From sequence record MK373774.1: DNA of 64,000 nt; one strand, given 5' to 3'. How positions within the stretch are numbered: the first letter of the stretch is position 1; each line of letters opens with the position of its first letter. Under the pieces are notes generated by a model. That model did not search any database. It was not told the origin of the DNA and saw only the letters and a list, made by a program, of their open reading frames with translations. Made by a program: the position numbers and the translations under genes. The stretch is from Escherichia phage vB_EcoM_WFL6982. Shown here in pieces: positions 42,876 to 44,116 of the stretch.

Positions 42876-42889
42876 GGGGCCGAAGCCCC
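42876..42889 (-). terminator. GGGGCUUCGGCCCC hairpin
   Basis: Hairpin then T-rich run downstream of hoc on the minus strand. Confidence 0.5.
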
Positions 42890-42893
42890 TTGA

Positions 42894-43388
42894 TTATGGA
42901 TATGTATAGATGATACCAGTTTCCAAAGCAGTTTTATGGATGATGTATCCATTACGTGATTCTTGAACATCAACTTCTGGATAGTCTTTCATCATCTTCT
43001 GAAGCGTATAACGATGCAAGTAATACTTACTATCTGGATCTTCAGTTTTCCAATCTTTACCTTCTTCAGTCATTTTTTGGATTTCATCCATAACCCACCA
43101 ACCGCACCAGATGTAAGCTGAAGTACGATGTGGAAGAGGATGAACATAAGGTAATTCACCTTCTGGAACTGTATTTGTTGCAACTACTTTAATAGTCTTT
43201 TGACCGGCAGGTCCTTTTAGTACATAACTAAAAGTTGCTTCAGCTCCATCTTGCGGAACATCATCTACAGACCAAGCATATGTAATAGTTCCACCTCCAG
43301 TTTCACCACCGGGAGTAGCAGTAAACTGCTTAGTCTCATCTATAACTCCAGTAGGTGTTTTAGGAGTTATATCAACTGTAAAAGCCAT
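42894..43388 (-). CDS. hoc: highly immunogenic outer capsid protein, short single-Ig form
   Basis: N-terminal MAFTVDITPKTPTGVIDETKQF.. and C-terminal ..PYVHPLPHRTSAYIWCGWWVMDEIQ.. match T4 Hoc ends; only 164 aa. Confidence 0.8.
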   Translation of the reverse strand: MAFTVDITPKTPTGVIDETKQFTATPGGETGGGTITYAWSVDDVPQDGAEATFSYVLKGPAGQKTIKVVATNTVPEGELPYVHPLPHRTSAYIWCGWWVMDEIQKMTEEGKDWKTEDPDSKYYLHRYTLQKMMKDYPEVDVQESRNGYIIHKTALETGIIYTYP

Positions 43389-43397
43389 AAGTTATCC

Positions 43398-44066
43398 TTA
43401 TTTTAATGTTACGAAAGAAGAATTACGAGTTTCACGAATTAGAACTGATCCATCGCGATTAATATAATAAATTAAGCTAAATAATGTTTGGTGAGCAGAA
43501 GCGTGCACAAAACTGGTTGGGCGAGATTTCCAATCTGGGGTTTCGGCTATCCATTGATAAATCCACCAAGGAACAGTAACATATCCTGGGCCTTTGCCTA
43601 ATTTAATGAGTGTAGGACTAAAATTTTCAGGCAGAACAAATTTTACTTCTTTATTTACCTCTGGATCAGGCTCTTTTTCAGATTCAACAACCTGAGTAAT
43701 TGCTTCTTCGAATTTATCATGGTCGAATTCTTTTTCTTGTTCGACAACTTCTAATACTTCAACTTGTTCTGTTGGAGAATCAAACAACAGAATAGCTTCT
43801 TCTTTAACTTCTTCGTTGGTGAAATTAACACCGTCCACATCATCTGCGGCAGTAATTAAATCGGTGATAGATAATCCATCGGTTTCAGGTAATGGTTCAT
43901 CAGCCAGTGCGTTAAGAGCTTCTTCGATATCAATAACAATATTATCGAATGATTTTGTTTTCTTAACACTAATGCCAAATTGTTTCGCATATTCGAACAG
44001 TTTAGCTTTGGCTTCCTTTTTATCAGAAAGAGCACGTAACTCTTCAATATAGTCTTTATCGATCAT
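43398..44066 (-). CDS. inh: inhibitor of prohead protease
   Basis: 222 aa adjacent to hoc as in T4. Confidence 0.65.
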   Translation of the reverse strand: MIDKDYIEELRALSDKKEAKAKLFEYAKQFGISVKKTKSFDNIVIDIEEALNALADEPLPETDGLSITDLITAADDVDGVNFTNEEVKEEAILLFDSPTEQVEVLEVVEQEKEFDHDKFEEAITQVVESEKEPDPEVNKEVKFVLPENFSPTLIKLGKGPGYVTVPWWIYQWIAETPDWKSRPTSFVHASAHQTLFSLIYYINRDGSVLIRETRNSSFVTLK

Positions 44067-44079
44067 GGTATTTCCTCAT

Positions 44080-44087
44080 TATAAATA
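44080..44087 (+). promoter_or_regulatory. late promoter TATAAATA
   Basis: Exact TATAAATA upstream of uvsW. Confidence 0.6.
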
Positions 44088-44116
44088 TAACTATATTTAT
44101 TACATGGTAATTTGAC

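What the first reader, a model, noticed from the sequence alone, without database searches (positions are those of the whole stretch)
42894..43388. Hoc reduced to a single Ig-like domain
The ORF retains the Hoc N-terminus and the C-terminal capsid-binding segment but is only 164 aa, whereas T4 Hoc as I recall is about 376 aa with three tandem Ig-like domains. A clean in-frame loss of two Ig domains would alter the capsid-surface display arm thought to mediate adherence.
Basis: partly seen in the sequence, partly recalled or inferred. Interest (0 to 1): 0.5.

Follow-up and report, generated by a model that had tools for sequence, protein, structure and literature searches.

The report
Internally deleted Hoc capsid-decoration gene
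This T4-like coliphage (vB_EcoM_WFK) carries a shortened copy of the non-essential head-decoration gene hoc: a 636-bp in-frame deletion leaves the capsid anchor intact but removes two Ig-like domains plus the last strand of the third, which is an ordinary private deletion allele rather than a new kind of protein.

Summary
Window 42894..43388 (-) encodes a 164-aa protein that is Hoc: E = 2.6e-110 to T4 Hoc (376 aa), and phrog_1149 E = 1.4e-75. It sits in the canonical gp24–rnlB–hoc–inh–uvsW context. The window is 100% identical to Escherichia phage vB_EcoM_WFK (Mosigvirus).

Relatives at about 98% nucleotide identity carry Hoc of 282, 376 or 472 aa. WFK lacks 212 codons relative to the 376-aa form, and the deletion is bounded by a 7-bp direct repeat, CCAGAAG. 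Assembly collapse is very unlikely for three reasons:
- The longest exact repeat in full-length hoc is 11–17 nt.
- The assemblers used were SPAdes k=55 or HGAP.
- A separately sequenced sister isolate, WFL6982, encodes the identical protein.

It also removes the terminal β-strand of Ig domain 1 and the Pro-rich linker, both of which all 11 natural one-Ig Hocs I aligned (179–198 aa) retain. The capsid-binding domain keeps all 15 published gp23-contact residues.

The most likely reading is a capsid-bound stub with a crippled display arm, meaning reduced or lost function in a dispensable gene. Variation in Hoc domain number (1–10) and natural domain-deletion variants are already published. The allele is private to WFK among 635 hoc-bearing phage records. 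Interest is low.

The parts
42894..43388 (-). hoc deletion allele, 164 aa (GenBank WFK_00179, annotated 'hypothetical protein')
   Evidence: ORF listing; 100% identical to MK373775.1; T4 Hoc E = 2.6e-110; phrog_1149 E = 1.4e-75.
43161..43388 (-). Codons 1-76: remnant of Ig-like domain 1 (strands up to F; terminal strand G missing)
   Evidence: 99-100% identical to residues 1-76 of the 282/376/472-aa relatives. The AF2 model has strands at 4-8, 19-27, 34-41, 52-56 and 66-73 and nothing after. The intact relative has additional strands at 13-15 and 80-91.
43160..43166 (-). Deletion junction: the single surviving copy of the 7-bp direct repeat CCAGAAG (codons P75-E76 and the first base of G77)
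   Evidence: In full-length relatives CCAGAAG occurs at nt 223 and nt 859 of hoc, exactly flanking the missing 636 bp. The same junction is obtained against the 282-, 376- and 472-aa genes.
42897..43160 (-). Codons 77-164: C-terminal capsid-binding domain (corresponds to T4 Hoc 289-376)
   Evidence: 96% identical over 92 aligned columns to the solved T4 Hoc C-terminal domain 8t1x_X (Foldseek E = 1.1e-11, TM 0.77 normalised to target). All 15 gp23-contact or conserved residues named in PMC10385173 are present (Y293, H295, H299, R300, Y304, W306, W309, W310, Q354, E355-S-R-N-G359, Y360).
43395..43399 (-). Shine-Dalgarno-like AAGGA, 6 nt upstream of the hoc ATG and overlapping the end of inh
   Evidence: Read directly from the sequence.
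42876..42889 (-). Intrinsic-terminator-like hairpin GGGGCTTCGGCCCC followed by a T-run, just downstream of hoc
   Evidence: Sequence; annotated as a putative terminator in MK373775.1.

Best explanation
The ORF is a spontaneous in-frame internal deletion allele of hoc, the dispensable head-decoration gene of T4-like phages.

Shown:
- The deletion is 636 bp relative to the 376-aa form, or 924 bp relative to the 472-aa form.
- Its ends lie in two copies of the 7-bp repeat CCAGAAG, and one copy survives. This is the signature of slipped-strand or illegitimate recombination between short direct repeats.
- The deletion removes strand G of Ig domain 1, all of Ig domains 2 and 3, and the Pro-rich linker.
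- The complete α/β capsid-binding domain, with every known gp23-contact residue, is left in place.

Inferred:
- The 18.5-kDa product is still made, since the RBS, reading frame and terminator are unchanged, and it still docks at the centre of gp23 hexamers.
- Instead of a fibre about 180 Å long, it presents only a 76-residue, strand-deficient Ig remnant, joined to the anchor by about 8 residues that leave from the wrong end of the β-sandwich.
- An Ig sandwich lacking its terminal strand is expected to be poorly folded or unstable, so the adherence and charge-cloud functions ascribed to the Hoc arm are probably strongly reduced. Calculated net charge falls from about -21 to about -8 per molecule.
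- Plaque-forming ability should be unaffected, because hoc is non-essential in the laboratory.

In short, this is a hypomorphic or null-like private allele, not an evolved minimal Hoc.
For: - Identity and breakpoints.
- Junction repeat.
- Not an assembly artefact: the longest exact internal repeats are 11 nt (376-aa gene) and 17 nt (472-aa gene). The source paper used SPAdes k=55 or PacBio HGAP. The identical 164-aa protein is encoded by the separately sequenced isolate WFL6982 (164,279 bp at 174x coverage; WFK is 164,590 bp at 455x).
- Private allele: only WFK has the junction among 635 phage records with a hoc match. Among the 40 nearest records the inferred forms are 1 x one-Ig (WFK), 1 x two-Ig, 24 x three-Ig and 14 x four-Ig (span-to-length mapping verified for three records). 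The 90%-identity protein cluster has one member sequence on two NCBI contigs.
- Strand G missing: alignment of 11 natural one-Ig Hocs; AF2 of WFK Hoc versus AV111 Hoc.
- Anchor intact: with residue roles from PMC10385173.
- hoc is often damaged in relatives: other in-frame deletions of 130, 133, 143, 182 and 232 aa, and frameshift truncations including T6. This fits a dispensable gene (PMC10385173).
Against: - The deletion is in frame and preserves the anchor, which is also what selection for a shortened but functional protein would give. There is ascertainment bias here, however: out-of-frame deletions would not be retrieved as full-coverage homologues.
- AF2 still gives the remnant pLDDT 84-93 over residues 1-70, so the model itself does not predict unfolding. 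AF2 is known to be insensitive to this kind of defect.
- Residues E29 and G33, reported as MUC2-binding in domain 1 of phage PNJ-6 Hoc (PMC11853027), are retained.
- No reads, virion protein data or adherence data were available.
Confidence: 0.72

Rival explanations
1. This is a functional minimal Hoc. On this reading the deletion yields a working single-Ig display arm held close to the capsid, altering rather than abolishing adherence, and it is maintained by selection.
For: - It is in frame with an intact anchor.
- Natural one-Ig Hocs exist in Aeromonas, Shewanella and other T4-like phages, and in phage PG7 (PMC10385173).
- Domain-1 residues E29 and G33, implicated in MUC2 binding in PNJ-6 Hoc, are retained.
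- A small deletion in Hoc domain 1 has been reported to increase adhesion (PMC13248984 abstract).
- AF2 confidence for residues 1-70 remains fairly high.
Against: - All 11 natural one-Ig Hocs aligned keep the terminal strand and a linker that WFK lacks.
- The WFK model has no replacement strand and low confidence at residues 71-90.
- The allele is unique to one isolate pair from one sewage sample and one host.
- The junction was not found in IMG/VR, JGI metagenomes or GTDB genomes, although that scan has low power.
- The breakpoint is dictated by a 7-bp repeat rather than by a domain boundary.
Confidence: 0.2
2. This is an assembly or consensus artefact. On this reading the real phage has a 3- or 4-Ig hoc, and the repeated Ig-coding sequence was collapsed or a minority deletion variant was called.
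For: Hoc contains tandem homologous Ig domains. No reads were available to me. The WFL6982 record itself could not be fetched, and the exact-protein contig look-up returned nothing.
Against: - The Ig repeats are highly diverged at the DNA level. The longest exact repeats are 11 nt and 17 nt, against assembly at k=55 or with long reads.
- The junction uses only 7 bp of identity.
- Two separately sequenced isolates, at 455x and 174x coverage, give the identical protein.
- Both flanks are contiguous and 98-100% identical to relatives.
Confidence: 0.04
3. This is a real deletion that arose or was enriched during laboratory isolation (overnight liquid enrichment and plaque purification on one host) rather than in the sewage population. 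This is a sub-case of the best explanation concerning where the allele originated.
For: Isolation used overnight enrichment in LB with the host. WFK and WFL6982 share host DSM 101124, site and month, so they may be siblings from one enrichment. hoc is dispensable in the laboratory. The allele has not been seen elsewhere.
Against: Nothing bears on this directly. A single enrichment is short, and no growth advantage of hoc deletions in liquid culture was found in the papers I read.
Confidence: 0.35

Closest known systems
T4 Hoc (highly immunogenic outer capsid protein, 376 aa; PDB 5VF3, 8T1X; PMC10385173)
   Same: It is an orthologue in the same locus. Residues 1-77 and 283-376 align almost identically. 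The capsid-binding domain matches 8t1x_X at 96% identity, and all gp23-contact residues are conserved.
   Different: It lacks 212 internal residues: strand G of Ig domain 1, Ig domains 2 and 3, and the linker. It is 18.5 kDa against about 40.7 kDa for the 376-aa relative, with calculated charge -8 against -21.
Mosigvirus Hoc length variants: AV111 (282 aa, 2 Ig), NicPhage/JS09-type (376 aa, 3 Ig), vB_EQ1-type (472 aa, 4 Ig)
   Same: They share about 98% nucleotide identity in the flanks and 99-100% protein identity in the shared parts.
   Different: In these variants the copy-number changes occur between homologous inter-domain segments and keep whole domains. The AV111 junction, for example, lies in the repeated 'VTATDYD' motif. 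The WFK junction cuts inside domain 1.
Phage ΦPNJ-9 Hoc (283 aa; natural variant lacking Ig Domain 3; PMC11853027)
   Same: It is a natural T4-like coliphage Hoc with fewer Ig domains, and it is still capsid-borne and reported to bind mucus.
   Different: PNJ-9 keeps two complete Ig domains, and its MUC2 binding maps to Domain 2, which WFK has lost entirely.
Natural one-Ig Hocs (Enterobacter phage PG7 short Hoc, 233 aa; Shewanella phage Thanatos-1, 179 aa; Aeromonas phage PS49, 185 aa; metagenomic proteins of 184-198 aa)
   Same: The overall plan is the same: one N-terminal Ig-like module plus the conserved C-terminal anchor.
   Different: They retain the terminal β-strand (…ETAEAxTTLTV…) and a Pro-rich linker of about 8-15 residues. 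WFK is about 15-35 residues shorter and lacks both.
Other damaged hoc alleles in T-even phages (in-frame deletions of 130, 133, 143, 182 and 232 aa; frameshift-truncated hoc in T6, ACG-C40, UPWr_E2 and others)
   Same: The gene and locus are the same, and several are also in frame and keep the C-terminal anchor.
   Different: The breakpoints differ. The 182-aa allele (P0019) keeps strand G, whereas the 130- and 133-aa alleles cut deeper into domain 1.

Membership tests
Hoc / Hoc-like head decoration protein (phrog_1149; T4 Hoc) | A C-terminal α/β capsid-binding domain homologous to T4 Hoc 281-376, with the conserved ESRNG loop and the aromatic and basic gp23-contact residues | tested here: met
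   phmmer domain score 204.7 bits over T4 283-376; Foldseek to 8t1x_X E = 1.1e-11 at 96% identity; 15 of 15 named residues present; only the first 6-8 coil residues of the 281-376 segment are missing.
Hoc / Hoc-like head decoration protein (phrog_1149; T4 Hoc) | Orthologous genomic position in T4-like phages (between inh and the small ORFs downstream of gene 24 and rnlB) | tested here: met
   The gene order in the window matches that of the annotated relatives.
Hoc / Hoc-like head decoration protein (phrog_1149; T4 Hoc) | One copy bound at the centre of each gp23 hexamer on the expanded capsid | not testable with these tools
   This needs virion SDS-PAGE or mass spectrometry, or cryo-EM. It is inferred only from the intact anchor.
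Hoc with a string of complete Ig-like domains (canonical fibre architecture, 1-10 domains; PMC10385173) | At least one complete Ig-like β-sandwich, including its terminal (G) strand, N-terminal to the anchor | tested here: not met
   The segment homologous to the 80-91 strand of AV111 Hoc (pLDDT about 97) is deleted. The WFK model has no strand after residue 73 until the anchor, and it lacks the 13-15 strand. The N-terminal part gives only weak Ig-like structural matches, E >= 0.056. This rests on prediction and alignment, not on experiment.
Hoc with a string of complete Ig-like domains (canonical fibre architecture, 1-10 domains; PMC10385173) | A flexible or Pro-rich linker between the last Ig domain and the anchor | tested here: not met
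   The 'DKVAPEPE' linker of relatives and the 'EPAPPVP'-type linkers of natural one-Ig Hocs are absent. Strand F is joined to the first anchor strand by about 8 residues.
PKD / Ig Pfam families (PF00801, PF13927, PF07679) | A significant match to a Pfam Ig or PKD model | tested here: not met
   WFK Hoc has no hit. In intact relatives the hits fall on domains 2 (residues 99-158) and 3 (193-277), never on domain 1. WFK has therefore lost both Pfam-recognisable domains, and the test says nothing about whether the domain-1 remnant is intact.

The most novel reading that the evidence does not exclude
The most novel reading is that the strand-deficient Ig remnant is not junk. On this reading WFK Hoc is a naturally selected, capsid-hugging mini-Hoc whose incomplete β-sandwich is completed either by the adjacent VPEGELPY segment or by strand exchange with a partner. 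That would give the capsid a new adhesive or aggregation behaviour and would define the smallest functional Hoc display module.
Probability: 0.08. Interest if true: 0.5.

Novelty: new member of a known kind. Interest (0 to 1): 0.2.

Why it matters
The main value is in annotation and use of this phage. WFK_00179 and its neighbour inh are labelled 'hypothetical protein' in GenBank, and WFK should be regarded as carrying a crippled hoc. That matters if this phage or its sister isolate is used for mucosal-adherence, pharmacokinetic or immunogenicity work, or for Hoc-display engineering.

WFK is also a ready-made natural control. It has an intact anchor, almost no arm, and near-isogenic relatives with 2, 3 and 4 Ig domains at about 98% identity. 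That series could be used to test how arm length affects mucus adherence and pH-dependent clustering.

It does not open a new biological question. Variation in Hoc domain number and the dispensability of hoc are both established.

Tried and rejected
- Pfam scan of WFK Hoc and of intact relatives, to ask whether domain 1 is recognisable only when complete. Domain 1 is not recognised in any of them, so the test is uninformative.
- Fetching the sister genome MK373774 (WFL6982). It is not in the collections, and the exact-protein contig look-up for the 164-aa protein returned nothing. Independence therefore rests on the cluster record and the paper's supplementary tables.
- Exact-pattern scans for the deletion junction in IMG/VR, JGI metagenomes and GTDB genomes. 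All gave 0 hits. Positive controls show that IMG/VR holds only 2-3 Mosigvirus hoc copies carrying the undeleted junction sequences, so these negatives have little power. The 635-record GenBank phage search is the meaningful one.
- Search for an exact T4 late promoter (TATAAATA) on the minus strand between 42,000 and 46,000. None was found, so the promoter driving inh-hoc was not identified. This applies to the whole locus and was not pursued.
- Microhomology at other hoc deletion junctions. The AV111 junction lies in a 5-8-bp match within a longer imperfect repeat. The P0019 and P0064 junctions showed only 1 nt in the ungapped comparison with non-parental references, which is not informative.
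- Assembly collapse was considered and rejected (see rivals).
- The Inh-Hoc anchor homology was tested by BLASTP (E = 1.1) and by hhalign (E = 0.021 against a single sequence; E = 0.0036 at 9% probability profile against profile). It remains inconclusive.

Full report
**What is there.** The window is 100% identical over the tested 1.5 kb to Escherichia phage vB_EcoM_WFK (MK373775.1; Mosigvirus, Straboviridae), isolated from sewage in Germany. The ORF at 42894..43388 on the minus strand encodes 164 aa. It has an AAGGA ribosome-binding site 6 nt upstream and a hairpin plus T-run terminator just downstream. Its neighbours are the gp24 vertex protein, RNA ligase 2, two small conserved ORFs, then inh (phrog_1051, E = 9.5e-91) and uvsW. 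This is the canonical hoc locus of T-even phages. Against PDB sequences the protein hits T4 Hoc (376 aa) at E = 2.6e-110, with residues 1-77 matching T4 1-77 and residues 71-164 matching T4 283-376. PHROGs calls it 'Hoc-like head decoration' at E = 1.4e-75. GenBank labels it 'hypothetical protein'.

**How it arose.**
- All other close relatives align to this region in two pieces with extra DNA in between.
- I checked three of them. AV111 Hoc is 282 aa, NicPhage Hoc is 376 aa and vB_EQ1 Hoc is 472 aa. All are 99-100% identical to WFK Hoc in the shared parts.
- From the spans of the 40 best records, the inferred forms are 24 three-Ig, 14 four-Ig, one two-Ig, and WFK alone with the short form.
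- At the DNA level WFK lacks exactly 636 bp (212 codons) relative to the 376-aa gene.
- The breakpoints fall within two copies of CCAGAAG, at nt 223 and nt 859 of the full-length gene. One copy survives at window 43160-43166.
- A deletion between short direct repeats is the classic outcome of slipped mispairing or illegitimate recombination. That mechanistic statement is general knowledge and was not tested here.

**Artefact or real.**
- The Ig-coding repeats are too diverged to be collapsed by an assembler. The longest exact internal repeat is 11 nt in the 376-aa gene and 17 nt in the 472-aa gene.
- The source study assembled with SPAdes at k=55 or with PacBio HGAP (PMC6563267).
- The identical 164-aa protein is also encoded by vB_EcoM_WFL6982 (QBQ76940.1). 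That is a separately sequenced isolate of 164,279 bp at 174x coverage; WFK is 164,590 bp at 455x.
- The two isolates share host strain (DSM 101124), site and month. They replicate the sequence technically but are not biologically independent, and the isolation protocol included overnight enrichment. I therefore cannot say whether the deletion existed in the sewage or arose in the enrichment.
- Among 635 GenBank phage records with a hoc match, only WFK carries the junction.
- Exact-pattern scans of IMG/VR, JGI metagenomes and GTDB genomes found nothing. Controls show those collections hold very few Mosigvirus hoc copies.

**What the product looks like.**
- The C-terminal part is a complete capsid-binding domain. 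Fokine et al. define it as T4 residues 281-376 and name the gp23-contact residues (PMC10385173).
- WFK retains the equivalent of 289-376 and all 15 named residues.
- The C-terminal half of the AF2 model superposes on the solved domain 8t1x_X at E = 1.1e-11, TM 0.77 normalised to the target, and 96% identity.
- The N-terminal part is not a whole Ig domain. In the AF2 model of the closest intact relative, AV111 Hoc (mean pLDDT 86.7), domain 1 has strands at 4-8, 13-15, 19-27, 34-41, 52-56, 62-73 and 80-91. The last of these lies in a block with mean pLDDT 97.
- WFK's sequence stops following the relatives at residue 76. Its model (mean pLDDT 78.9) has no strand after 73 until the anchor, lacks the 13-15 strand, and drops to block pLDDT 65 and 49 over residues 71-90.
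- In an alignment of 33 Hocs, all 11 natural one-Ig proteins (179-198 aa, from metagenomes and from Shewanella and Aeromonas phages) keep the 'ETAEAxTTLTV' segment and a Pro-rich linker. WFK alone lacks them.

So the deletion is not domain-clean. It removes the terminal strand of domain 1, domains 2 and 3, and the linker. By inference, a β-sandwich missing its terminal strand is expected to be unstable. The chain also now leaves the remnant from the F-strand end, so whatever folds would sit inverted and directly on the anchor. Calculated net charge at pH 7 falls from -21 (376 aa) to -8, which is relevant to the proposed charge-dependent dispersion role of Hoc.

**Most likely function.** The protein probably still occupies hexamer centres but has lost most or all of the arm's activity, which makes it a hypomorphic or null-like allele of a gene that is dispensable in culture. 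This fits how often hoc is found damaged in relatives. Independent in-frame deletions give proteins of 130, 133, 143, 182 and 232 aa, and frameshift truncations after '…TSGVKK' occur in several phages, including T6.

The main rival is a selected, functional mini-Hoc. It is not excluded, for these reasons:
- The deletion is in frame.
- E29 and G33, reported as MUC2-binding residues in PNJ-6 Hoc domain 1, are retained.
- A small domain-1 deletion has been reported to increase adhesion.

I give this rival about 0.2.

**Comparison with what is known.** The literature already describes Hoc homologues with 1 to 10 Ig domains (PG7 short Hoc with one, Muldoon with ten). It also describes a natural coliphage variant lacking Domain 3 that still binds mucus through Domain 2 (PNJ-9). 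WFK Hoc is a member of the Hoc family by descent, by anchor and by locus. It fails the test for the canonical architecture of complete Ig domains plus linker, and it differs from natural one-Ig Hocs in exactly that respect. I rate it a new member (a private deletion allele) of a known kind, and of low interest.

**Side observations.** The adjacent Inh protein weakly matches the Hoc family over the anchor region (phrog_1149, E = 9.9e-5). hhalign places Inh 128-219 against Hoc 183-266, with the WW, DWK and E-S/T-R-N motifs aligned. Support is weak: E = 0.0036, probability 9%, and BLASTP E = 1.1. This is an untested lead. The 2/3/4-domain polymorphism among Mosigviruses at about 98% identity is worth noting in its own right. 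The two-Ig form arises by a junction in the repeated 'VTATDYD' motif, and the four-Ig form by an additional copy of a domain-2-like unit.

Noticed in passing
window 43398..44066 (-), inh; compared with hoc 42897..43160: The C-terminal ~90 residues of Inh (prohead-protease inhibitor) weakly resemble the Hoc capsid-binding domain. The phrog_1149 hit has E = 9.9e-5. hhalign of a Hoc profile against an Inh profile gives E = 0.0036 at 9% probability, with the WW, DWK and E-(S/T)-R-N motifs aligned. BLASTP is not significant (E = 1.1). The two adjacent genes may share an anchor fold, but this is unproven.
   Followed up: partly
L002:1297-2427, L003:1295-2713, L004:1297-2145 (hoc of NicPhage, vB_EQ1, AV111): Mosigviruses that are about 98% identical in flanking DNA carry Hoc with 2, 3 or 4 Ig domains (282, 376 and 472 aa). 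Among the 40 closest records the spans imply 24 three-Ig, 14 four-Ig and 1 two-Ig form. The two-Ig junction lies in the repeated 'VTATDYD' coding motif, and the four-Ig form has an extra domain-2-like unit.
   Followed up: partly
P0019 (L005:3001-3549, L006:566-1114), P0064 (L007:3001-3393), P0022, P0028, P0072; P0100, P0106, P0107, P0112, P0087: hoc is recurrently damaged in T-even phage contigs. Independent in-frame deletions give proteins of 182, 130, 232, 133 and 143 aa, all keeping the C-terminal anchor. Frameshift truncations right after '…TSGVKK' occur in several phages, including T6. I did not check the coding DNA at that site.
   Followed up: partly
L007:3001-3393 (E. coli assembly GCA_036930585.1, 166-kb contig); L005 (Shigella sonnei assembly GCA_054117855.1): Whole or large T-even phage contigs sit inside bacterial isolate assemblies. 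The 130-aa Hoc there has a JS98-like N-terminus joined to a T4/Mosigvirus-like anchor, which suggests either a mosaic hoc or a deletion in a divergent parent.
   Followed up: no
L002:3143-3886 (NicPhage, between inh and uvsW); corresponds to window ~44067-44116: NicPhage has an extra 744-bp ORF (hypothetical protein NICP_220) inserted between inh and uvsW. It is absent from WFK, AV111 and vB_EQ1, so it may be a mobile insertion. I did not examine it.
   Followed up: no
window 42894..44066 (GenBank WFK_00179, WFK_00180): Both hoc and inh are annotated 'hypothetical protein' in MK373775.1, although each has a strong family match (phrog_1149 E = 1.4e-75; phrog_1051 E = 9.5e-91).
   Followed up: yes
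whole record MK373775.1 versus relatives: WFK (164,590 bp) and WFL6982 (164,279 bp) are about 5 kb shorter than most close Mosigvirus relatives (about 168-170 kb). The hoc deletion accounts for only 0.6-0.9 kb of that, so other deletions must exist elsewhere in the genome. I did not map them.
   Followed up: no
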